From an uncultured Thermodesulfobacteriota bacterium (lineage in GTDB: Bacteria > Desulfobacterota > GWC2-55-46 > JADFVP01): a stretch of 64,000 nt of DNA. The first letter of the stretch is position 1; each line of letters starts with the position of its first letter. The position numbers were made by a program, and so were the translations under genes. This document shows, one piece after another, positions 4,621 through 64,000 of the stretch. The stretch is taken from assembly GCA_964567185.1 (NCBI GenBank), contig CAZMKZ010000002.1, positions 4,466 through 68,465 on the forward strand, in the 5' to 3' direction. The notes under the pieces are model-generated. The model had not been told where the DNA came from. It searched no databases and saw only the letters and a program-made list of their open reading frames with translations.

Positions 4621-7600
4621 TCAGTTACAGCTCGTAGTTGACTGGGTGGTATTCTTATCAATGCCCGTAATACCGCAGTTTGCGTCCGTAAAGGCGCTCC
4701 TTGAAGCCGTGAGGCTCACGTTGATGGTCTTGTCATGATAGAGCTGGCCGGCGGCATATGTATATGTGCCGGGGTTCTGGCTGTCCTCCACCATTGTGCC
4801 GGTCTCCACCGTAGCGGCAGGCAGGCCCGTTATCACCGCCGATATCTTGGCCCCTGAGACAGGTAGCGAGTTTTCATCGGTAAGCACCACGGTGAGGCTC
4901 ACATTCTGGCCGCCGCTTCCGGTCCTGTCAACGGTCATGGCCTCCTTGAACCTCGAGTCCTGGTCATATGTATAGATACCCACGGAGGGCTCGGGCTGGA
5001 TATCATAATTGGCGTTGCTGTCCGTCATCATTACGTAATACCAGACCCTCTTGCCCGTGAGGGTTGGGATATGACTTGATGTGCAGGCCCCTGAAGAGGC
5101 CGTCTCATATGTATTTGTACTGCCCACCTGGCACATGGTAACGGCATTCCACCCTGAGGGAGTCGAGGAATAATCCGTAGCCGGAGCGGAAAAAGTAGTC
5201 TTATCCGTTGTGCTGTAGTAGAGCGTAGCCCCGGTTACAGCTATGCCGGTATCAGGGCTCACCGTGTCCTCAACGCTCACGTCATAGGATGTCCATGTGT
5301 AATTAGGGTCCTGGGTCCCCGTCTCCACGGTTACGTTCGCCGGGTTCACATTGGATATAGTGGGTGTTACGGGCCTGTCCTGCACGCTACCCGTTATGGT
5401 GGGTCCTACGGTCACGGGCACGGTAAAGGTGCTCGAATTGCAGGCCGCGCCGTCAAGGTCATTTGTATAGTTAAGGGTTACTATTATATTTTCGGAGCGC
5501 ATGTCCACGTAACCGGTCCCCGCGGAATCCCTGAAGTCGAGGGTGAACTCGTTGAGGCCCGTCGAGCCGTTAAGCCTCCTCAGCGAGGCCGTGGGCTCAA
5601 AGGTGGCAAAATCAACTACAAAGCCCGATGCCACGTCCGTATTGTTCCAGAGCGTATTGGCGCTGCCGCCAAAGGGTTTTAATACTACCTTGTGGAGCTT
5701 TGCCGTAGCATTGGCCCAGACAAAGGTAGCCGAGTTTATGGTAACAGAGCTATTTCCCGTGTTCTGTATCCCAATGGTTACCACGTTGTGCTGACCGCCG
5801 TTCAGCGGCGGGCTCACCGTGCCCGAAGTTACTACGGTGATAGCGGGATCCCAGGTTATGTTTGTGGGCATGACCGTCACCTCGGGGGAACTTGCGACGC
5901 TCTCATTAAGGGCGCAGTCAAGGGCCTTCACCGTGTAATAATAGGTGGTGCCCGCCGTTACCGTACTGTCGGCGTAACTCGTTGCCGTTACAGGCATGGA
6001 GTTGATCTTGGTATAAGGGCCGCCCGAAGTTGTGGCCCTGTACACATAGTACCCCACCACGTCGTTCTCCGAGGCTGGATTGAAGAGGTTTCCGTTCTCA
6101 CTGCCCGCAGAGGCCGTCCAGTTAACCGTGGACGTTGAGCACGTGGCCGTGGTAAGACTCGCCGGCGCCGATGGCGGCCCATAGTGCTTGGAGCCGGGCG
6201 AGCCGTCGCCGCAGGGGGCGGCCGTGGCCAGAGACGTGGCCCCTGCGCTGAAGTTTCCGCACCTGTCGTAGGCAAAGGCCCTGTAGTAATAGGTAGTGCC
6301 GAGGTATATCCCGTACGTATCTATAAGGGGATAGGTCTGCGCGGGAACAAGGGGCTCATAGTCCTTTACGTTGTTTGGTCCCACGGCGCCGGAGTCCTGC
6401 GCGCTCACGGGATACTGGTCCGTTCTTCGCAGTATCCTCACACCCTTGAGATCCGTGTCCGTGGGCGTTGCGTCGCTCATATATATCTTGTCCGAGGCCG
6501 GAACCGCAAGAAAGGGCGTGGGGTCGGCAGGCGGCACGGTCTCAAAGGGGCTCGTATTTGTCAGGCCGCTTGTGGGCGTGTCCGTGCCGCTCTTGGAACC
6601 ATCACCATAAACACCGCTCTGCATTGACAAGTTCTTTTCATTACCGGCGCAATCCCAGGAAAGAACCCTGTATATGAAGGGATAGGAAGGACAATTCGTT
6701 ACGGTAATATCGGCGTAGGTCAGGTGAGTGGAATCCAGCTCCGCCACCTGCGCGTATGTATCCCCGCCGTCATCGCTCCTGTAGACATGGTAGCCGCCCG
6801 TGTCTACGGAGACGCTGGGGTCCCAGGTCAGGGTCACAAGGCCGTCGCCGGCCGTGGCGTCAGTATTCGTCGGCAAATCAGGGCTCGTAACGTCATTTGG
6901 CTTTGTGTCCGCGGTTCCGCCCGTACCCGATATGGGCGTGGTAAAGGAGGTGTTCACATTGCCCGATGTGTCGTAACACTTCATGGCTATGTCATATTGA
7001 GTGCCGTTGGTAAGGCCCGTAAGGGTATAGGACTCCGTGGACCCGCCCGGAATATCTATAAGGCCCGTATAAAAACCCGCTCCAGTCGGCTTGTAATACA
7101 CCTTGTACCCCGCGGCGTCGGAGCTTGAGCTCTTTGTCCACGCCAGGTTAAGCCTGCCGCAGAGACCCGGGTCTGTTGACTGAATATTGGTGGGAAGGGC
7201 GCACTCCGTAACGTCCGTGGATTGCTGTATCCCCATGCACCTTAGCGAAACACTTGTTTCGAGGTTTACGGTATCTATCTTGTTGGTAGCTGGGTTGGGG
7301 TACTCCGTGGAGGCCGTAAGGGCTATGCCCACCCTGCGTATCCTGTCCCTGTTGGCCTGCGACTGTATGGGGGCCGGGATAAGCGCGCCCGTTTCGTCGT
7401 AATAGGTAAACTGAAGCCCCGTGATGTTGCCAGCAAGGTCAACGCCTGTGCCGTAGGCCCCGTAGCTGCTGCCGCTCCATACGGCGGAACTCCTCATTAA
7501 CTCTTTTGCCGCCGCGTCAAGCTCGTACTTTATCTTCCATGGTCCCAGATTGGGGTCAGGGTCCGAGTCGGACTCGAACTCAAGGACAGTGGAGTCGGCT

Positions 7601-56889: not shown

Positions 56890-58896
56890 ATGAGTGAAGA
56901 CAAGACAATGCAAGACGAAGGTATAGACGTTCTTTCGCATGAAAAGAGGCTTTTTCCGCCGACTCGGGCCATCTCTGAAAAGGCATACATAAAAGGCCCC
57001 GAAGAGTACGAGGCCCTTTACAACGAATCCATATCAGACCCCGAGGGCTTCTGGGCGAGGATGGCCGAAGAGCACCTTCACTGGGATAAAAAGTGGGATA
57101 AGGTCCTTGAGTATGACTTTAATGAACCGAGCGTAAAGTGGTTTATTAACGGCCGGCTTAACGCCTCGTACAACTGCCTTGACAGGCATCTTTCGTCATG
57201 GAGGCGCAACAAGGCCGCCATAATATGGGAGGGCGACGACGGCTCGTACAAGACATACACGTATCAGGAGCTACACTTTGAAGTAAACCGCTTTGCCAAT
57301 GTCCTGCAGGCCAAGGGCATAAAAAAAGGCGACCGTATCACCATATATCTGCCAATGATACCGGAGCTCGCCATAGCCATGCTCGCCGCGGCGAGGATCG
57401 GGGCCGTGCATAGCGTGGTCTTCGGCGGTTTCAGCGCGTCTTCGCTTGCCGAGAGGATTATTGATTCCGGCTCGTCTCTACTTATAACCTCTGATGAGGG
57501 GGTTCGCGGCGGAAAGCACATAGCCATGAAAAAACACGCCGATGAGGCCCTTCTTTCCTCTCACAATGTAAAAGACGTCATAGTGGTAAGAAGGACGGGC
57601 GGCGAGGTCCCCATGCAGGAAGGCCGCGACACGTGGTGGCATGACGAGGTCTCGGCACCGGGCATGAGACGCGCCTGCGCCCCCCTTGCCATGGACTCCG
57701 AAGACACCCTCTTCATACTCTACACGAGCGGCTCCACGGGAAAACCCAAGGGCGTGATTCACACAACGGGCGGGTACCTCCTCTACACGTCCCTCACCTT
57801 CAAGTGGATATTCGACTACAAGGAAGAGGACATATTCTTCTGCACCGCCGACATCGGCTGGATAACGGGGCACAGCTACATCGTATACGGCCCCCTTGCC
57901 TGCGGCGCAACGACGCTCATGTTCGAGGGTGTTCCCACATACCCCGGACCCGACAGGTTCTGGGAGATAGTGGAAAAATTCAAGATAAACATCTTCTACA
58001 CGGCCCCTACGGCCATAAGGGCGCTAATGAGGCACGGCTCCGCCCCGGTTGAGGCTCATGATCTATCGAGCCTCAAGCTCCTGGGCTCCGTGGGCGAGCC
58101 CATCAACCCCGAGGCATGGATGTGGTATCACAGCGTTGTGGGCGCCTCGAAGATACCCGTAATCGACACCTGGTGGCAGACCGAGACGGGCGGTATACTA
58201 ATAACTCCTCTACCCGGGGCCACGACGCTTAAGCCGGGTTCGGCGACAAGGCCCTTTTTCGGCGTACTGCCAAAGGCCCTTAAGGCAGACGGGACCGCGG
58301 CCAAGACCAACGAGGGCGGATGGCTTGTCATAGAAAAACCCTGGCCGGGCATGCTCCGGGGCATGTATGGAGACGAGGATAACAAACGCTTCAAGGATAC
58401 CTATTTTTCCATGTTTCCGGGCTGTTATCTAAGCGGCGACGGCGCGCGGCAGGACGAGGACGGGGACTGGTGGCTCATGGGCAGGATAGACGACGTGCTT
58501 AACGTCTCCGGGCACAGGCTCGGCACGGCGGAGATAGAGAGCGCGCTGGTATCTCACCCTCTGGTGGCCGAGGCCGCCGTGGTGGGCTACACTCACGAGG
58601 TAAAAGGCGAAGGCATATACGCCTTCGTAGTCCTTACAGAAGATGCCGATGGAGATGAGGGGCTGAAGAAGGAGCTTATAAAACATGTGGGGATAGAGAT
58701 AAGCCCCATCGCGAGACCGGATAAACTCCAGTTCGCGTTGGGGCTACCTAAGACCAGAAGCGGTAAGATAATGAGAAGGATACTGAGACAGATTGCGAGG
58801 GGCCGCACAGATGACCTTGGCGATACATCCACTCTTGCTGACCCGAGTATCGTTACAACGCTTGTTGAGGGCTCGCAGGCCGCTCAATCAAAATGA
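56890..58896 (+). CDS. acs: Acetyl-CoA synthetase (AMP-forming)
   Basis: [14 protein letters not shown]-binding motif and the acs-type N-terminus. The start was trimmed to MSEDKT. Confidence 0.93.
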
Positions 58897-59090
58897 CGCC
58901 TTGATGACTTTTTCAGGGCCTTGGCGCGGCGCTTTGCCGCTTCCTGACGCTTTCTCTTTTTCTTTACGCTTGGTTTTTCATAAAACCTTCTCTTCTTTAT
59001 CTCCTTGAAGGTTCCGTCCTGGGCCAGTTTGCGCTTGAGTATCCTGATGGCTTTTTCAAGCTGGCCTTCATAAACCTTAACCTCTGACAA
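58884..59090 (-). CDS. rpsU: 30S ribosomal protein S21
   Basis: 68 aa with a highly basic C-terminus and a typical S21 sequence. Confidence 0.92.
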
Positions 59091-59454
59091 GAAATAACAC
59101 CCCCTCTACAAAAAAATTTTCTTTTTACCATATATTGTTCGGTCCCTCTGCCGCACCTTACGCAGCGGACCCGAGACCGCTAAATCAAAACAATCTTATC
59201 GTCCGAGTGGCCCAAAAAAGACCTGCACCCCGCCTTCCACCCGACAATTGCTCTACAACAGACCTTATCACTGTTGGCGTTGATAAGCCCCATTCGCCCG
59301 GCTCATACCCACTGCCCGGCCCCGGGGAAAGATGGTGATTATAACAGAAAAAGGTTATAAGTCAAAATATTTAAAGGTTCTGTTACCTGAATCCTCAAAA
59401 AAGCAGATAACAGAGCAAGACCCTGCTGTCGAAGCGTAAGACATGCTCTACGGG

Positions 59455-59494
59455 GGTATAAAAAGACCTGCCCTGTTTTTCATAAGGCAGGTCT
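59455..59494 (-). terminator. Rho-independent terminator of the cytochrome gene
   Basis: A 9-bp stem (agacctgcc / ggcaggtct) with a 13-nt loop, followed on the minus strand by TTTTTAT. Confidence 0.75.
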
Positions 59495-59525
59495 TGATTC
59501 AATCACCCTCAGGGGTGAATAATTT

Positions 59526-60551
59526 TTATTTATCGTGACAGGTTCTGCAGACTCCGCTACCGGTATTGCCGCCAACCCTTCTAAGGAAAAAGCCGTCAAC
59601 GCAATCCTCGCCGCTGCACCAGAACTGAAAAGAGGCTCCGTTCGAGTGATTGGCATACTGGTATGTGCTGTCCACCTCATCGTAGCTGAGGTTACGGAAG
59701 TGCGGGTCGTGGCATGAACTGCACTCCACCTTGTTGTTCCTCAAGAGAGAGCCTATGGTAGCCGTGCTTGAGATAAAGCCCGATACGGCCCAACGGTTCT
59801 GCGAGAGGTTGTTAACAAAAAAAGGCGTTGTATTAAGAAGGCCGGCAGAGAGGTCGATATTGCCTATTACTGTGCTCGTAGGCCTGAGGCTCGCCTTTGA
59901 TGAGGCCGAGTAAGGTATGGAAACGGGGTGGTCGTTTGAAAGGTCAACTCCAATATTGAGGCTCTGCACCGTATCTCCGGTGGCAAACGACGGACTTGCG
60001 CCATGGCATGTAAGACAACTGGTGGGGCTTGTAGGTGTATTAGTATTAAAATGGTCAAAATCAGTGCTTTGATAAGTAGTACCCGGCATGCTGAAGGACC
60101 AGTTCTGGTCTGCGCCTCCCGGCACAACGCCGCCCTTACCCGGGGCGTTTACAAGGCTATCGAAGGTAGTGACGCCGTCATGACAGCTCAGGCAGGCCAG
60201 TGTTGCCCCTCCGAGGTCGGCGCTATTAACGTTGGTTCCGGCTATGGTGGAACCATAGCCGATATAGCTTGATGAGTTGGCAGTAGACCTGTTCCAGAGA
60301 GGGGCTGCCGTTGTATTGGAATGATGGGGAGTATGACAAAAGATACATACCTGAGTAGTGGCGCCTGTCCTTAAAACCCTGCCGAATTTGCCAAGGTTGT
60401 GCCTTGACATCAGGATGCCATTGGCCACTACGCCATCCGGATAATCGGACACCGTGGTAGCCGCCGATGAGATACCCGGCCCTAAAAACACTACGGCCGT
60501 AAGCACCGCTATGGTTGTCAATAATAATCTTTTCATAATATTATCCCCCAC
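59526..60551 (-). CDS. Secreted pentahaem c-type cytochrome
   Basis: Signal peptide plus five CxxCH motifs (CIFCH, CLSCH, CLTCH, CSSCH, CRTCH). Confidence 0.85.
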   Translation of the reverse strand: MGDNIMKRLLLTTIAVLTAVVFLGPGISSAATTVSDYPDGVVANGILMSRHNLGKFGRVLRTGATTQVCIFCHTPHHSNTTAAPLWNRSTANSSSYIGYGSTIAGTNVNSADLGGATLACLSCHDGVTTFDSLVNAPGKGGVVPGGADQNWSFSMPGTTYQSTDFDHFNTNTPTSPTSCLTCHGASPSFATGDTVQSLNIGVDLSNDHPVSIPYSASSKASLRPTSTVIGNIDLSAGLLNTTPFFVNNLSQNRWAVSGFISSTATIGSLLRNNKVECSSCHDPHFRNLSYDEVDSTYQYANHSNGASFQFWCSGEDCVDGFFLRRVGGNTGSGVCRTCHDK

Positions 60552-60853
60552 CCATACACTAACAGCCGCCCTACTTTTTTATCGGGTTTCCACAACGCCT
60601 GATCTCTGAAAAAATAAAAAAGCCATCCTTACGACCTGTGCGGCTCGTAGAATGGCATTCATTACCCCGCGCCCTTAAGCCCTCCATGAGCGTAAGGATC
60701 TTTATGTACAAACACTATCTTAATTAACATTTTAATGATTTGAGGTCAAAAGTCAAGACAAATTTATCTTTTTTTAATAAAAATTATAAATTATTTTAAA
60801 AAAACCGCCCAACCACCCTTTTTTTGAAAGAAAAGTGTAATCAGCGGTAGCCC

Positions 60854-62380
60854 TCATGAAAAGGACTTTAATTTTCTGCATCTCTTCGGATGTCTCAGCT
60901 TTCGGAGCGCCTTTGCCTCTATCTGGCGTATCCTCTCCCTTGTTACCTCAAAATAGGCGCCCACCTCCTCAAGCGTATGGTCCCTTGTCTCGCCTATGCC
61001 GAACCTCATCCTCAGGACCTTTTCCTCTCTTGGCGTAAGCGTTGAGAGGACCTCGTTCATGCGTCCCGTAAGGTCATTGAGCATCATCTCGTCATGGGGG
61101 ACAGAGGCGTCCTTATCCTCTATGAAGTCTCCGAGAAGGCTGTCCCCGTCTTCTCCCACAGGCGTCTCAAGAGAGATGGGCTCCTTGGCCATCTTTAGGA
61201 TCTTTCTCACCTTATCCACGGGCAGGAGCAGGGACTCTCCGAGCTCTTCCACGGTTGGCTCCCTGCCGCGGTTCTGCACAAAATAATGAACCGTGCGAAG
61301 GAGTTTATTTATGGTCTCTATCATATGGACCGGTATGCGTATGGTCCTTGCCTGATCCGCTATGGCGCGCGAGATGGCCTGACGTATCCACCATGTGGCG
61401 TATGTGGAAAACTTGTACCCGCGCCTGTACTCGAACTTCTCTACGGCGCGCATCAGGCCTATATTGCCTTCCTGGATAAGGTCCATGAACTGCAGGCCCC
61501 TGTTCAGATACCTTCTCGCTATGCTCACCACAAGGCGGAGATTGGACTTTATGAGCAGTTCCCTTGCCGCCCCTATCTCGTGTTCATGAAGACATATGGC
61601 AGTAAGCGTATTCCCCAGGCCCTCATAGTCAAGGCCCACCCTGGCGGCAAGCTCCTCTTCTCTCTTATGGTTCTGCCGGGCCTCACACATCACATCCTTA
61701 ATGGTCCTGCCGCGCAACAGCGGCCCTGCCGGACCCTTGCCGCCTTTTTCGGCGCGGGCCACCATGTTCTCAAGGCGCCGTATCTTTCTCCTTATCCTCT
61801 TGAAATCCCCCTCATATCCCGTAAGCCTCTCAATGGACGCTCCGAAGATATTACTGCGTTTATCTATGTCAAGGAGAAGGTTAAGGCACTTCTCTGTCGG
61901 TCTCTTGCCGGCCTTCCAACTTGCCGCGGACCTGCCGTAAATCTTCTTTATATTATCTATCTTATGGAATACATCCTGAAGGTCTGACTCCGCCTCGCTT
62001 AAAATCCTCTCATCGTCGTCATATTCTATTACCTCACGGCCCTCGGAGCTTTTCCCCCGTAGCCTCTCCTTAAGCGAATCAAGTTCTTCTATTATCACCT
62101 TCGTCTTCAGCAACTCTATGGCCACGCCGAACATGCCCTGCTCAACGGTCCTGGCAAGACGCACCTCTTCGTCCCGCGTAAGGAGCCGTACGGCACCCAT
62201 CTCTTTCAAGTAGGCCCTTACAGGGTCTTTGACGGCGCTGGGCTGCGCCACGGCAAGGGGCGGGGCGGACTGAATGGGTTCGGAGGCCACAGGCCTTGCG
62301 GGCATGGCCTTGACTGCCTTCTTATCCCCCTGCATATCTCTTGATCTAGCCATAATAAAAGTATCGAACCATACAGGCAA
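60854..62380 (-). CDS. rpoD: RNA polymerase sigma factor RpoD (sigma70)
   Basis: Regions 1.2 through 4 are present. Confidence 0.95.
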
Positions 62381-62395
62381 AAGATGAAGGAAAAC

Positions 62396-64000
62396 TTAGC
62401 GGCCTTTTTTCTCTATCCTCTTCTTTATCTCTTGTGCAAGCTCAGCCTGCCCCGAGTCTGCAAGCCTGCCGAGCATCTCCTTTGTAGCCTTCTTAAGTTT
62501 ACCCCTGTTCAGTATCTTTTTCAAACTATCTTTGAGCATCTTCTCCGGGTCCCCTATAAAGTCGTCATCGTCCCTTAAGAGCCCTGTCTTTATAAAACCG
62601 TCAATCTCAGCCCCGTGCAGGGCCTCGGCTATCTCATCAATCCTTACGGGGCCGGGACCCTCCATGGCCTCGCATATAATGGCCCCCGCCTTTTTAAGGC
62701 CATTGTCCCTGAACGCGGCCACGGCCTCACGGGCCTCAAGACAGTATAGATCAGGCCGGTTAACGAGAACCTTCAATACCGTAAACTCCACGAGGGTCGA
62801 GCCCCTTAGCGAGGCGATGCTGGCGGCCCGTGGCGCGGCATGGGCCTTTGCCTTTACCCCGGGACGCGCCGCGCCGGAACGCAGGGCCTCGTAGACCGAG
62901 GCGGGCGGCATCTGCAGAAGAGAGGCCACATAAGAGGCGTAGTGGTCCCTCTCCGCCACATTCGCCAACCTTGATATATACTGCAACGCGCCCTCAAAAA
63001 AAGCGGCCTTACCCTCGGGGCCTGTAATATCAAGGCTTGACTCCAGCCTCTTGAGATAAAACTCCAGTATGGGCACGGCGGACTTCAAGACCTTTTTCAT
63101 CTCCCCGGGGCCTTTATTCAGCAAAAATTCATCGGGGTCCTTGGCCCCTGTAAGGGCGACAACACGGCATCTCATATCCTCATCAATAAAGAGCTCCATA
63201 CTCCTCAGGGCCGCCTTTACCCCGGCCTCATCGGCGTCAAAAAGGGTATAAATGCTCCCGGCATATCCACGCAGTATCCTTATATGCCCCTTTGTAAGCG
63301 CCGTTCCAAGGGTGGCCACCGTGTTGGTGAACCCCGCGGAATGCATGGCCAGCAAGTCAAAATACCCCTCAACAACGATGGCAGAGCCAAGCTCCTTTAT
63401 GGCCGGGCCGGCCTGCGATAACCCGAAAAGGGTCTCGCCCTTCTTGAAAAGCTCTGTCTCCGGCGAGTTCAGATACTTTGGCCCACGCTCTCCAAGCTCC
63501 CTGCCGCCAAAACCTATAATCCTCTCTCTAATATCTGTTATGGGAAAGATGAGCCTCTCTCTGAACCTGTCGTAATAGCCCTTATCCCCCCTGCTTACAA
63601 GCCCTGCCTTTGCGGCGAGCCCCGCTGGATATCCTGCCCTCTCAAGATAACGGACGAGGCCGCTCCACCCCGGCGGGGCGTAGCCAAGGGCAAAACGCTC
63701 AAGAAGCCCCCTGTCCTTAAAACCCCTTTTTTGGAGATATTTCCTTGCATTCGCGCCCTCGCCGGAAAAAAGCCTCTTTACAAAGTAATCCCTTGCCGCA
63801 CTGTTAACCTGATAGAGAGAATCCTTTTGGCCGCCTCTTTTTCCCCTATCCTCCTTTATGGTGACGCCGCAACGCGAGGCCAACTCCCTCACGGCATCGG
63901 GAAAGGGCAGGCCGTCTTTTTTCATAAGAAAGGTGATGGCGCTTCCTGTCTCATGACAGCCGAAACAGTGAAATATCTTCTTATCCTCATTAACGGAAAA
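62396..64000 (-). CDS. dnaG: DNA primase DnaG (N-terminus runs off the window end)
   Basis: TOPRIM domain. The in-frame extension to the window edge encodes the zinc finger FSVNEDKKIFHCFGCHETGSAITF. Confidence 0.9.
   Translation of the reverse strand, partial: FSVNEDKKIFHCFGCHETGSAITFLMKKDGLPFPDAVRELASRCGVTIKEDRGKRGGQKDSLYQVNSAARDYFVKRLFSGEGANARKYLQKRGFKDRGLLERFALGYAPPGWSGLVRYLERAGYPAGLAAKAGLVSRGDKGYYDRFRERLIFPITDIRERIIGFGGRELGERGPKYLNSPETELFKKGETLFGLSQAGPAIKELGSAIVVEGYFDLLAMHSAGFTNTVATLGTALTKGHIRILRGYAGSIYTLFDADEAGVKAALRSMELFIDEDMRCRVVALTGAKDPDEFLLNKGPGEMKKVLKSAVPILEFYLKRLESSLDITGPEGKAAFFEGALQYISRLANVAERDHYASYVASLLQMPPASVYEALRSGAARPGVKAKAHAAPRAASIASLRGSTLVEFTVLKVLVNRPDLYCLEAREAVAAFRDNGLKKAGAIICEAMEGPGPVRIDEIAEALHGAEIDGFIKTGLLRDDDDFIGDPEKMLKDSLKKILNRGKLKKATKEMLGRLADSGQAELAQEIKKRIEKKGR

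What the first reader, a model, noticed from the sequence alone, without database searches (positions are those of the whole stretch)
59455..60853. Pentahaem c-type cytochrome inserted between rpoD and rpsU
The universal rpsU-dnaG-rpoD macromolecular-synthesis cluster is rearranged on the minus strand as dnaG-rpoD-[cytochrome]-rpsU. The inserted gene is a signal-peptide-bearing, five-CxxCH cytochrome with its own terminator. It is preceded by a 150-bp AT-rich upstream region (60700-60850) in an otherwise GC-rich genome. Embedding a secreted multihaem cytochrome in a core housekeeping locus is unusual, and it may relate to the pilus and extracellular-electron-transfer theme of the window.
Basis: partly seen in the sequence, partly recalled or inferred. 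Interest (0 to 1): 0.55.

Follow-up and report, generated by a model that had tools for sequence, protein, structure and literature searches.

The report
OmcE-like five-haem cytochrome with RNA switch
The gene between rpoD and rpsU encodes a secreted five-haem relative of the Geobacter "nanowire" cytochrome OmcE, carried in a self-contained expression cassette whose leader holds a conserved, undescribed RNA element ending in a terminator that probably switches the gene on and off.

Summary
A 336-aa ORF (59526-60536, minus strand) has five CxxCH motifs and a Sec-type N-terminus. It has its own terminator and the most AT-rich tract of the window upstream. It lies between rpoD and rpsU.

The placement is not a one-off. 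The same order occurs on 13 distinct contigs of uncultured Thermodesulfobacteriota/"Deltaproteobacteria", with RpoD identity down to 58%. The three genes are separate transcription units, each bounded by predicted terminators and promoters.

The protein is a homologue of the filament-forming tetrahaem OmcE (PDB 7TFS, profile E 2e-21; 9YUQ, E 2e-16). All four OmcE haem motifs and all four distal histidines are kept. A ~40-residue insert carries a fifth CxxCH and a conserved His. A 2025 preprint already flagged such "5-haem OmcE-like" proteins as a possible new nanowire family.

The new result is a ~90-nt structured leader RNA (60700-60609). It follows a near-consensus promoter and ends in an intrinsic terminator. 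It has two hairpins with AUGR loops. It precedes about 30 genes of this cytochrome subfamily at four different genomic contexts. It shows strong covariation and has no Rfam match. I read it as a factor-dependent antiterminator. No functional link to the distant pilus genes was found.

The parts
62396..64000 (-). dnaG (DNA primase); the N-terminal zinc-ribbon part runs off the window end
   Evidence: Pfam DNAG_N, Toprim and DnaB_bind. On the same contig the full gene is 580 aa with Zn_ribbon_DnaG.
60854..62380 (-). rpoD (primary sigma-70); start codon uncertain, with public gene calls of 483-499 aa against a 508-aa ORF
   Evidence: Pfam Sigma70 r1.2, r2, r3 and r4; gene calls.
60797..60848 (-). 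terminator-like hairpin plus U7 directly after the rpoD stop codon
   Evidence: Fold of 60785-60860 (-): ACCGCUGAUUACAC...GGGUGGUUGGGCGGU followed by UUUUUUU, dG -16.1 kcal/mol, z -1.75, so modest.
60757..60796 (-). AT-rich tract upstream of the -35 hexamer, with the conserved pattern ATTAA-N7-T(N)AAT-TTT. It looks like an UP element or a regulator site.
   Evidence: GC 0.25. The same pattern lies upstream of the -35 in most of the 25 related loci inspected. Function is inferred.
60729..60756 (-). sigma-70-type promoter TTGACT-16-TAAAAT (10 of 12 matches) of the cytochrome cassette
   Evidence: Consensus scan. A TTGAC(A/T)-N16-18-TATAAT-like promoter lies at the same distance before the RNA element in at least 22 of 25 loci. 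No transcript data.
60609..60700 (-). Conserved structured leader RNA. P1 is 60699-60693 paired with 60678-60672. The P1a hairpin is 60691-60679 (loop AUGGA). The P2 hairpin is 60666-60654 (loop AUGAA). The terminator stem is 60656-60622 and the U-run 60621-60609. P2 and the terminator share the bases GCC (60656-60654).
   Evidence: Covariance-model hits: 89 bits, E 3e-20 with R1; 76 bits with R2. Covariation on 24 sequences: 89% of cells paired against 68% in shuffles, 21 of 23 pairs with double changes, score 0.607 against 0.223 (0 of 500 shuffles reach it). Loop conservation, coordinates, no Rfam match.
59526..60536 (-). Five-haem OmcE-like c-type cytochrome, 336 aa. Residues 1-25 (60536-60462) form the predicted Sec signal.
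   Evidence: Five CxxCH motifs. PDB sequence search: 7tfs_A E 1.6e-14, or E 2.1e-21 with a profile; 9yuq_N E 8.7e-11, or 1.8e-16 with a profile. All five motifs and H46, H71, H203 and H279 are invariant in 39 homologues. AF2 pLDDT 80.4.
59967..60095 (-). Insert relative to four-haem OmcE-type proteins (residues ~148-190). It carries FxMP (M150), a conserved His (H162) and the fifth CxxCH (C174-H178).
   Evidence: Alignment of five-haem against sister four-haem proteins. A His lies between M150 and the motif in 39 of 39 sequences. This segment has low AF2 confidence.
59458..59495 (-). intrinsic terminator of the cytochrome gene
   Evidence: 12-bp G+C-rich stem plus U5, dG -28.6 kcal/mol, z -5.86. 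CAAGACCTGYC...GRCAGGTCTTTTT is conserved in the closer loci.
59338..59365 (-). rpsU promoter TTGACT-16-TATAAT (11 of 12 matches, with an extended -10 TG)
   Evidence: conserved in all syntenic loci.
58884..59090 (-). rpsU (ribosomal protein S21), TTG start. Its 3' end overlaps the convergent acs gene by 13 nt.
   Evidence: Pfam Ribosomal_S21, E 3e-19; ORF table.

Best explanation
What the locus is. The rpoD-rpsU spacer holds an autonomous expression cassette for a secreted five-haem cytochrome of the OmcE family. The protein keeps the complete OmcE core. That core is four CxxCH haem sites plus the four distal histidines, one of which in OmcE ligates a haem of the neighbouring subunit. A ~40-residue loop adds a fifth haem site with its own His (H162).

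Most likely role of the protein (inferred). It is exported by Sec and serves as an abundant extracytoplasmic electron-transfer protein. Most plausibly it is the subunit of an OmcE-type filament whose main haem chain is insulated while the fifth haem branches off it.

Expression. About 20 nt downstream the transcript forms a stable P1/P1a stem-loop. It then forms a short P2 hairpin whose 3' strand (YGCC) is also the first part of a long intrinsic terminator. P1a and P2 carry the same A-U-G-R loop.

Proposed switch (inferred). By default the terminator wins and transcription stops about 75 nt before the start codon. A trans-acting factor that recognises the two AUGR loops together holds P2 closed, blocks the terminator and lets RNA polymerase read into the cytochrome gene, making this an ON switch. 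The factor could be a small ligand that docks the loops, as in guanidine-II, or a dimeric RNA-binding protein, as with ANTAR regulators.

The position. The cassette's place between rpoD and rpsU is old, conserved synteny in this clade. Terminators and separate promoters isolate the three genes, so it is not co-transcription with the housekeeping genes.

Shown: the homology, the motifs, the synteny, the RNA structure and covariation, and the RNA-gene association.

Inferred: export, filament formation, promoter activity, the direction of the switch and the nature of the factor.
For: Protein.
- OmcE homology with all four blocks colinear. 7TFS is OmcE (PMC12954529) and 9YUQ is D. soudanensis OmcE.
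- Five CxxCH motifs and H46, H71, H203 and H279 are invariant.
- The insert carries the fifth motif and a His in 39 of 39 sequences.
- AF2 with a deep alignment gives pLDDT 80 and pTM 0.81.
- Petersen et al. 2025 predict that 5-haem OmcE-like proteins keep the insulated chain plus an exposed haem.
- The sister four-haem genes sit in clusters with an NHL beta-propeller lipoprotein, cytochrome c7, TPR/PMT_2 and a SurA-like PPIase. These resemble the published OmcE clusters.
- Tandem arrays of up to five paralogues behave like structural-subunit genes.

Cassette.
- Promoters and terminators are predicted at the expected places.
- The promoter module is conserved across loci.

RNA.
- The covariance model built from 9 syntenic loci finds the element upstream of subfamily genes at non-rpoD loci, always on the gene's strand and roughly 25-170 nt before the start, with one outlier near 270-400 nt.
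- Only the first gene of an array is preceded by it, or each gene when the genes are spaced apart.
- Covariation is strong.
- P2 forms in nascent-RNA folds and is replaced by the terminator in full-length folds, while P1/P1a do not change.
- Loop positions 1, 3 and 4 are 96-100% conserved in both loops.
- In L011 and L012 only 45-50 nt separate the U-run from the ATG, leaving essentially no room for a second promoter.

Synteny: 13 contigs.
Against: - No transcript, protein or filament data exist for this organism.
- No porin, beta-propeller or other multihaem gene lies within 10 kb of the five-haem gene, unlike the published OmcE clusters.
- The Foldseek search of PDB with the good model returned nothing, not even 7TFS. 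This is expected for these coil-rich proteins (PMC9473688), but it gives no structural confirmation.
- The fifth-haem insert is modelled at low confidence, so the claim that the haem is exposed is borrowed from the preprint.
- P2 has only one-sided changes and no double compensatory change, so the antiterminator is plausible but not proven.
- The covariation counts come from an alignment fitted to the model.
- No regulator gene is conserved next to the cassette, and the factor is unknown.
- The physiological role of cytochrome filaments is itself disputed (PMC11077965, listed).
Confidence: 0.6

Rival explanations
1. The cytochrome is a soluble periplasmic or cell-surface monomeric electron carrier that shares ancestry with OmcE but does not polymerise. 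The extra insert and the absence of accessory genes would reflect a different, non-filament role.
For: No porin, beta-propeller or accessory cytochrome genes lie near the five-haem genes at the rpoD or ligA/rplM sites. The protein is ~100 residues longer than OmcE, with three inserts. The structure search gave no filament match.
Against: All four OmcE distal histidines are invariant across 129 diverse homologues, including the N-terminal RH(N/D)L histidine. The very strong promoter and the tandem arrays fit a bulk structural subunit. Closely related four-haem sisters sit in OmcE-type clusters. Accessory genes may lie elsewhere in the genome.
Confidence: 0.35
2. The leader is a metabolite- or ion-sensing riboswitch of a new class. 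Ligand binding docks the two AUGR loops, as in the guanidine-II (mini-ykkC) kissing hairpins, which stabilises P2 and prevents termination without any protein.
For: Two hairpins carry near-identical loops, with A1, G3 and R4 96-100% conserved, joined by a linker of variable length. No regulator gene is conserved beside the cassette in four different genomic contexts. P2 and the terminator are mutually exclusive. Geobacter offers a precedent, since cGAMP riboswitches control extracellular cytochromes (PMC6456294).
Against: The conserved core is very small and there is no conserved junction or pocket. Position 2 is U rather than the C of ACGR. The Rfam mini-ykkC model does not match. No candidate ligand follows from the gene context.
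Confidence: 0.3
3. The leader is the target of a dimeric RNA-binding antiterminator protein (ANTAR-like logic). The P1a hairpin recruits the protein and P2, embedded in the terminator, is captured next.
For: The architecture matches the ANTAR model: the first hairpin is always folded, the second overlaps the terminator stem, and the two loops are alike (PMC8934654).
Against: The loops are 4-5 nt with A1/G3/R4, not hexaloops with A1/G4. P1a sits on an extra outer stem and the linker is long and variable, whereas ANTAR needs a short linker. No ANTAR or other RNA-binding regulator gene was seen in any fetched locus. Whole genomes could not be searched.
Confidence: 0.3
4. The element is a constitutive attenuator or an independent ~110-nt small RNA gene that merely lies upstream. 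The cytochrome would be expressed by basal read-through or from another promoter, and nothing would be sensed.
For: The terminator is much more stable than P2 in every sequence. P2 lacks double compensatory changes. A promoter-to-terminator unit is what an sRNA gene looks like.
Against: The element is found only in front of this cytochrome subfamily, always co-oriented, in four unrelated contexts, and once per transcription unit. There is no room for a second promoter in L011 and L012. The invariant loop bases are unexplained by a plain terminator.
Confidence: 0.12
5. The position next to rpoD and rpsU is functional. The cytochrome would be coupled to growth-rate-controlled housekeeping expression, for example by read-through from rpoD or into rpsU.
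For: The position is conserved over deep divergence (13 contigs). A second recurrent site is also directly upstream of ribosomal protein genes (rplM-rpsI), without an obvious terminator in between.
Against: At the rpoD site, terminators follow rpoD and the cytochrome, and rpsU has its own near-consensus promoter. In 7 of the 13 loci an opposite-strand gene separates the cytochrome from rpsU. The same cassette works in non-housekeeping contexts.
Confidence: 0.1

Closest known systems
OmcE, the tetrahaem cytochrome nanowire subunit of Geobacter sulfurreducens (PDB 7TFS), and its Desulfuromonas soudanensis homologue (PDB 9YUQ)
   Same: There is significant sequence homology (profile E 2e-21 and 2e-16). 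The blocks are colinear: RH(N/D)L..CxFCHTPH..PLWNR..CxSCHDG; LGxDLSNDHPV; CSSCHDxH; FLR..GS.CxxCHxK at the C-terminus. All four haem motifs and all four distal His are kept.
   Different: This protein has five haems instead of four and 336 aa instead of 218-232. Three inserts are present, one of which carries the extra haem. The gene is solitary, without the porin, beta-propeller and cytochrome accessory genes. Filament formation is untested.
'5-haem OmcE-like proteins' of uncultured bacteria, proposed as a possible new nanowire family (Petersen et al., bioRxiv 10.1101/2025.10.22.684050)
   Same: OmcE similarity plus a fifth CxxCH, and an origin in uncultured bacteria. This protein fits that description.
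   Different: The preprint describes proteins of 'similar length' to OmcE, whereas this subfamily is ~100 aa longer. The preprint reports no genomic placement, promoter or leader RNA for them. I could not check whether its examples include this subfamily.
OmcZ 'leaky' nanowire (PDB 8D9M)
   Same: The only shared idea is one haem per subunit branching off the main chain and exposed to solvent.
   Different: There is no sequence relationship. OmcZ is octahaem with no inter-subunit His.
E. coli-type macromolecular synthesis operon rpsU-dnaG-rpoD
   Same: The same three genes lie within 5 kb on one strand.
   Different: The order is dnaG-rpoD-X-rpsU. yqeY-NIF3-mutS2 lie upstream of dnaG. A terminator follows rpoD and rpsU has its own promoter, so this is not one operon.
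ANTAR-target dual-hexaloop antiterminator RNAs (EutV, NasR, AmiR)
   Same: Two hairpins carry alike loops. The first is always folded, while the second shares its 3' strand with an intrinsic terminator.
   Different: The loops are 4-5 nt (A-U-G-R-N), not hexaloops with A1/G4. An outer P1 stem is present, and the linker is long and variable. No ANTAR gene was seen.
Guanidine-II riboswitch (mini-ykkC)
   Same: Two small hairpins with the same conserved purine-rich loop (ACGR there, AUGR here) are joined by a variable linker. A few loops here are literally ACGR.
   Different: Position 2 is U in 17 of 24 P1a loops and 20 of 24 P2 loops. The Rfam model does not match. The expression platform is a terminator rather than Shine-Dalgarno sequestration. 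The associated genes are cytochromes, not guanidine exporters or carboxylases (the features of mini-ykkC are from my own knowledge).
GEMM-Ib cGAMP riboswitches upstream of Geobacter extracellular cytochromes (pgcA, omcST, omcAHG)
   Same: They provide a functional precedent: a leader RNA with a conditional terminator gating extracellular and nanowire cytochrome genes (PMC6456294).
   Different: The fold and sequence are unrelated, and no GEMM hit was found anywhere in the window or in six related loci.

Membership tests
OmcE-type cytochrome (nanowire subunit family, PDB 7TFS / 9YUQ) | Significant sequence similarity to OmcE over the haem-binding blocks | tested here: met
   phmmer E 1.6e-14 and 8.7e-11; profile E 2.1e-21 and 1.8e-16 with four colinear blocks.
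OmcE-type cytochrome (nanowire subunit family, PDB 7TFS / 9YUQ) | Four CxxCH motifs plus four conserved non-motif histidines as distal ligands | tested here: met
   The motifs at residues 64, 115, 272 and 330 align to the OmcE motifs. H46, H71 and H203 are invariant and H279 is at least 90% conserved in 129 homologues. One extra motif lies at residue 174.
OmcE-type cytochrome (nanowire subunit family, PDB 7TFS / 9YUQ) | Polymerises into a filament, with one haem ligated by a His of the neighbouring subunit | not testable with these tools
   Only a haem-free monomer model could be made. It needs an AF3 multimer with haems, or cryo-EM.
OmcE-type cytochrome (nanowire subunit family, PDB 7TFS / 9YUQ) | Same protein fold as 7TFS | tested here: inconclusive
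OmcE-type cytochrome (nanowire subunit family, PDB 7TFS / 9YUQ) | Gene lies in a cluster with two multihaem cytochromes, two beta-propeller lipoproteins and a large beta-barrel/porin (Petersen 2025) | tested here: not met
   None of these lies within 10 kb here or at the 12 other syntenic loci. The four-haem sister genes do have NHL propeller, cytochrome c7 and TPR/PMT_2 neighbours.
5-haem OmcE-like proteins (Petersen et al. 2025) | OmcE similarity with five CxxCH motifs | tested here: met
   The five motifs are invariant in 39 homologues.
5-haem OmcE-like proteins (Petersen et al. 2025) | Extra haem solvent-exposed beside a conserved insulated four-haem chain | not testable with these tools
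   The insert (residues 160-195) has pLDDT 53-57 in a haem-free model.
Macromolecular synthesis operon rpsU-dnaG-rpoD | Order rpsU-dnaG-rpoD, transcribed as one unit | tested here: not met
   The order is dnaG-rpoD-cyt-rpsU. A terminator-like hairpin follows rpoD, and separate promoters precede the cytochrome and rpsU. These are predictions only.
ANTAR-target RNA | Two hairpins, the second overlapping the terminator stem | tested here: met
   The 3' strand of P2 (YGCC) forms the first bases of the terminator, and the two folds alternate.
ANTAR-target RNA | Hexanucleotide loops with A at position 1 and G at position 4 | tested here: not met
   The loops are 4-5 nt, with A1 in 24/24 and 23/24, G3 in 24/24 and 24/24, and R4 in 24/24 for both.
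Guanidine-II riboswitch (mini-ykkC, RF01068) | Two hairpins with ACGR tetraloops, matching the Rfam covariance model | tested here: not met
   No Rfam hit at E up to 10 on the window leader or E up to 5 on six other loci. C occupies loop position 2 in only 2 of 24 sequences for each loop.
GEMM-I / GEMM-Ib cyclic-dinucleotide riboswitch | Match to the Rfam covariance model | tested here: not met
   No hit.

The most novel reading that the evidence does not exclude
The dual-AUGR-loop leader is a new riboswitch class: a minimal kissing-hairpin aptamer coupled to a terminator. It directly senses a small molecule or ion relevant to extracellular respiration. Through that it gates production of a new 'branched' five-haem OmcE-type nanowire in uncultured subsurface Thermodesulfobacteriota.
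Probability: 0.25. Interest if true: 0.8.

Novelty: new variant of a known kind. Interest (0 to 1): 0.58.

Why it matters
Cytochrome nanowires have been solved structurally in only a few organisms, and how cells decide when to make them is largely unknown outside Geobacter's cGAMP riboswitches. This locus contributes three things.

1. A well-defined, abundant subfamily of five-haem OmcE relatives from uncultured groundwater and sediment bacteria. It has a clear evolutionary step: a four-haem sister group plus one haem-bearing insert. That makes it a concrete target for testing the predicted hybrid between "insulated" and "leaky" wires.
2. A compact, portable expression cassette consisting of an UP-like tract, a near-consensus promoter, the leader and a terminator.
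3. An undescribed, strongly covarying leader RNA specific to these genes.

If the RNA senses a ligand or a regulator, finding that factor would reveal what signal controls nanowire-type cytochrome production in these organisms. The rpoD-rpsU position itself appears to be conserved synteny rather than a mechanism, so it should not be over-read.

Tried and rejected
- Rfam, at gathering threshold on the whole window and at E-value threshold on 58800-61000 and on six related loci, found nothing on the leader.
- The first AF2 run, with 39 close homologues, was unusable at pLDDT 48. The second, with 129 diverse homologues, was good.
- Leader-peptide attenuation is rejected. The AUG in the P1a loop is replaced by AAG, ACG or AGG in several loci, and there is no conserved ORF.
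- CsrA-type GGA loops are rejected, because many loops read AUGAC or AAGAC.
- A long-range pairing of the P1 5' strand with the terminator 3' strand gives 9 of 10 complementary bases in the window. It is not conserved elsewhere (my reading of the sequences).
- Mobile-element insertion: there are no flanking direct or inverted repeats around the cassette beyond low-complexity AT runs and the shared terminator half GCAGGTCTTTTT.
- The rpsU leader (59085-59332) is not unusually structured, z +0.47.
- The improved RNA model R2 found no copies near distant (28-35% identity) OmcE-like genes.
- The listing of cluster members gave no organism names.
- An outgroup test of 'insertion' was not attempted. 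The remaining genome scans were exhausted, and a RpoD homology search would return only close relatives.
Full report
**1. The observation**

On the minus strand the window carries dnaG (62396 to the window end), rpoD (60854-62380), a 336-aa ORF (59526-60536) and rpsU (58884-59090). A convergent acs gene and hisS follow.

The ORF starts at an ATG preceded by GGGGGA. It has five CxxCH motifs, at residues 64, 115, 174, 272 and 330. Its N-terminus, MKRLLLTTIAVLTAVVFLGPGISSA|A, looks like a Sec signal without a lipobox. That is my reading; no predictor was available.

A 12-bp G+C-rich hairpin plus a U-run follows the stop codon at 59495-59458 (dG -28.6 kcal/mol, z -5.9).

The tract 60700-60850 has 25% G+C against 54.5% for the window. 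It is the most AT-rich stretch in the 64 kb, and only 2551-2800 comes close.

Every factual element of the finding is therefore confirmed.

**2. Three insulated transcription units, not one operon**

- rpoD is followed by a hairpin plus U7 at 60848-60797. The hairpin is modest, z -1.75.
- The cytochrome has a TTGACT-16-TAAAAT promoter at 60756-60729.
- rpsU has a TTGACT-16-TATAAT promoter at 59365-59338.

These are consensus predictions and no transcript data exist. They are conserved in all syntenic loci.

**3. Synteny**

The order mutS2-dnaG-rpoD-cytochrome-rpsU-acs(convergent)-hisS recurs on 13 distinct contigs from different samples:

- the window;
- L004, L007, L008, L009 and L025, with RpoD 72-75% identical;
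- L011, L012, L014, L088, L170, L172 and L174. Where measured (L011, L012, L014, L088, L170), RpoD is 57-60% and DnaG 45-48% identical.

The records are labelled only as uncultured Thermodesulfobacteriota or "Deltaproteobacteria bacterium" MAGs from groundwater and sediments.

In the more distant group a small opposite-strand gene lies between the cytochrome and rpsU. In L011, L012 and L014 it has a lipoprotein-like N-terminus.

No flanking repeats suggest recent mobility. I could not obtain an outgroup to test whether the gene was inserted into an older rpoD-rpsU junction.

**4. What the protein is**

*Family-level searches.* Pfam and NCBIfam give only weak generic multihaem hits.

*Homology to OmcE.* Against PDB sequences the best matches are 7tfs_A (E 1.6e-14; E 2.1e-21 with a 39-sequence profile) and 9yuq_N (E 8.7e-11; 1.8e-16 with the profile). 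7TFS is the G. sulfurreducens OmcE tetrahaem filament (PMC12954529). 9YUQ is the D. soudanensis OmcE bundle (bioRxiv 10.1101/2025.10.22.684050).

The four OmcE blocks align colinearly:
- RH(N/D)L...CxFCHTPH...PLWNR...CxSCHDG
- LGxDLSNDHPV
- CSSCHDxH
- FLR...GS.CxxCHxK at the C-terminus

*Conserved ligands.* All five CxxCH motifs and H46, H71, H203 and H279 are invariant in 39 homologues. In a 129-sequence alignment reaching about 30% identity, H46, H71 and H203 stay invariant and H279 is at least 90% conserved. These four correspond to the four non-motif histidines that the preprint reports as conserved haem ligands in OmcE homologues. In OmcE filaments one haem is completed by a His of the adjacent subunit.

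*The fifth haem.* I compared the five-haem proteins (52% identity or more, 325-350 aa) with a sister group of four-haem proteins (41-51% identity, about 300 aa). The fifth motif lies in an insert at residues ~148-190. The insert also brings an invariant FxMP and, in 39 of 39 sequences, a histidine (H162 here). Five bis-His haems are therefore possible.

*Structure prediction.* AF2 with the deep alignment gives pLDDT 80.4 and pTM 0.81. Confidence is low only in the insert and at residues 295-301. A Foldseek search of PDB found nothing. The literature reports the same failure for OmcE itself, so this result is uninformative.

*Prior description.* Petersen et al. already noted many OmcE-like proteins with a fifth CxxCH in uncultured bacteria. 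They predicted an insulated four-haem chain plus one exposed haem, "an uncharacterized nanowire family". The present protein fits that description, although it is about 100 residues longer than OmcE.

*Family size.* The superfamily is large: 4027 clusters at 50% identity with E up to 1e-3, and 111 with E up to 1e-30.

**5. Genomic contexts of the subfamily**

Besides the rpoD|rpsU site, five-haem genes occur in two other contexts:
- between ligA and rplM-rpsI-argC, as one to five tandem copies (L010, L013, L015, L171). L171 and L012 come from the same MAG.
- downstream of the cytochrome-maturation genes resB, ccsA and dsbD, as two copies (L173).

The four-haem sisters sit in clusters with a TPR/PMT_2 glycosyltransferase, cytochrome c7, an NHL beta-propeller lipoprotein, a SurA-like PPIase, a monohaem cytochrome and an FGE-sulfatase-like protein. 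These recall the OmcE clusters of Desulfuromonadia: multihaem cytochromes, beta-propeller lipoproteins, glycosyltransferases and TPR proteins, near resB/ccsB.

None of these accessory genes lies within 10 kb of the window gene. The window's type IV pilus cluster (pilMNOPQ, minor pilins, pilSR, prepilin peptidase) is at ~1-13 kb, more than 45 kb away, with only housekeeping genes in between. I see no evidence for a functional pilus link.

**6. The leader RNA, the new element**

*Discovery.* Aligning the rpoD-cytochrome spacers of nine syntenic loci showed a conserved promoter. It is followed about 20-40 nt later by a conserved ~90-nt element ending in a U-run.

*Association with the gene family.* A covariance model built from those nine sequences finds the element in the following places:
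- upstream of subfamily genes at non-rpoD loci: L010, L013, L015, L016, L018, L022, L023, L026, L027 and L030;
- L088, L089, L096, L099, L100 and L160;
- L170 and L171;
- L172, L174 and twice in L173.

E-values run from 1e-5 to 1e-13 for most; L099 and L100 are weaker, at about 3e-3 and 8e-3. The element is always on the gene's strand. It ends roughly 25-170 nt before the start codon, except in L014 (about 175-270 nt) and L026 (about 270-400 nt, depending on the start codon chosen). It precedes only the first gene of a tight tandem array, and each gene when the genes are spaced apart.

The element does not occur elsewhere in the ~1.4 Mb of fetched DNA or elsewhere in the window. It is absent near distant OmcE-like genes of 28-35% identity.

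*Covariation.* On 24 sequences:

| Measure | Observed | Control |
|---|---|---|
| Pair cells that are standard pairs | 89% | 68% in shuffles |
| Pairs with changes on both sides | 21 of 23 | not applicable |
| Covariation score | 0.607 | 0.223 in shuffles (0 of 500 reach it); 0.06-0.14 for slid partners |

The caveat is that the alignment was fitted to the model.

*Architecture.* The parts, in order, are:
- an outer stem P1;
- an inner hairpin P1a (GCUC-AUGRN-GGGC);
- a variable linker;
- a 4-bp hairpin P2 (GGYR-AUGR(N)-YGCC);
- a 13-15-bp terminator whose first bases are the GCC of P2;
- a U-run.

P2 is paired in 92% of cells but shows only one-sided changes. In folds of the nascent RNA without the terminator's 3' strand, P2 forms in most sequences. 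In full-length folds the terminator replaces it, while P1/P1a are unchanged.

Both loops share A1 (24/24 and 23/24), G3 (24/24 and 24/24) and R4 (24/24 and 24/24). Position 2 is U in 17 and 20 of 24.

*Not a known family.* Rfam 15 has no match at E up to 10 on the window leader or E up to 5 on six other loci.

*No second promoter.* In L011 and L012 only 45-50 nt separate the U-run from the ATG, so a second promoter is unlikely. The scan finds none in the window.

*The promoter module.* The pattern ATTAA-N7-T(N)AAT-TTTyC-TTGAC(A/T)-N17-TATAAT is conserved across contexts.

**7. Mechanism**

Shown: there is a strong-looking promoter. There is a structured leader with a terminator that competes with a small hairpin. 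Two identical loop motifs are present, and the element is strictly associated with one cytochrome subfamily.

Inferred: the terminator is the default state, and a factor that recognises both AUGR loops stabilises P2 and allows read-through.

The logic matches ANTAR antiterminators, where the first hairpin is always folded and the second is embedded in the terminator (PMC8934654). The defining hexaloop with A1/G4 is not met, and no ANTAR gene was seen.

The design also resembles guanidine-II (two hairpins with ACGR loops that dock on ligand binding; my own knowledge). The loops differ, however, and the Rfam model does not match.

No regulator gene is conserved beside the cassette in four unrelated contexts. 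That leans slightly towards direct ligand sensing, but I cannot separate the two options.

Geobacter's cGAMP GEMM-Ib riboswitches upstream of omcST, pgcA and omcAHG are a functional precedent (PMC6456294).

**8. Verdict**

The cytochrome is a new member of a recently flagged but uncharacterised kind, the 5-haem OmcE-like proteins. Its placement between rpoD and rpsU is real but is conserved synteny of an insulated cassette, not an operon rearrangement with evident functional meaning.

The conserved dual-AUGR-loop leader with its terminator is, as far as Rfam 15 and the papers I read show, undescribed. It is the part most worth following up.

Noticed in passing
L171:8892-14118 (JACPGB010000044.1); also L010 and L013/L015: One to five tandem five-haem paralogues, five in L171, sit between ligA and rplM-rpsI-argC. 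One leader RNA precedes the first gene, and no obvious terminator lies before rplM. This is a second recurrent site directly upstream of ribosomal protein genes. L171 comes from the same MAG as the rpoD-site copy L012.
   Followed up: partly
L173:6867-9506 (JAJCZH010000026.1): Two paralogues, each with its own copy of the leader RNA, lie directly downstream of the cytochrome c maturation genes resB, ccsA, dsbD and thioredoxin. A PAS histidine kinase and a sigma-54 response regulator follow.
   Followed up: partly
L016, L022, L023, L026, L019 (around position 6000 in each): The four-haem sister proteins (41-51% identity) carry the same leader RNA. They sit in clusters with TPR/PMT_2, cytochrome c7, an NHL beta-propeller lipoprotein, a SurA-like PPIase, a monohaem cytochrome c, an FGE-sulfatase-like protein and a spermine-synthase-like protein.
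   Followed up: partly
window:60757-60796 and the equivalent position in about 20 loci: A conserved near-palindrome, ATTAA-N7-T(T/G/A)AAT, lies immediately upstream of the -35 hexamer, and a conserved TTTTAA lies in the promoter spacer. This could be an UP element or a transcription-factor site.
   Followed up: no
L011:6988-8213, L012, L014, L170:11897-12331, L172:8239-8676, L174:6369-6860: In the more distant syntenic loci a small opposite-strand ORF (144-225 aa) lies between the cytochrome and rpsU. The L170 copy has no Pfam hit. In L011, L012 and L014 the N-terminus is lipoprotein-like (...GCVSRGAY...) and the rest looks like a coiled coil.
   Followed up: partly
window:59085-59365: rpsU has a near-perfect promoter (11 of 12 matches plus an extended -10), a ~240-nt leader and a TTG start. 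The leader is not unusually structured (z +0.47) and is poorly conserved. It contains a copy of GCAGGTCTTTTT, the same 12-mer as the 3' half of the cytochrome terminator.
   Followed up: partly
window:58884-58896: The 3' ends of rpsU (-) and acs (+) overlap convergently by 13 nt.
   Followed up: no
window:2551-2800: This is the only other tract in the window with G+C of 0.33 or less. It lies in the type IV pilus cluster, upstream of a small HTH gene and pilMNOPQ, and is probably another promoter region.
   Followed up: no
window:60690-60699 and 60623-60632: In the window copy only, the 5' strand of P1 (GATCCTTACG) is 9 of 10 complementary to the 3' strand of the terminator (CGTAAGGATG). This allows an alternative long-range helix that is not conserved in the other loci.
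   Followed up: partly
window:39681-42188: An 832-aa protein with DUF7948 and SBBP beta-propeller repeats is the only beta-propeller-type gene in the window, about 18 kb from the cytochrome. No link to the cytochrome was examined.
   Followed up: no
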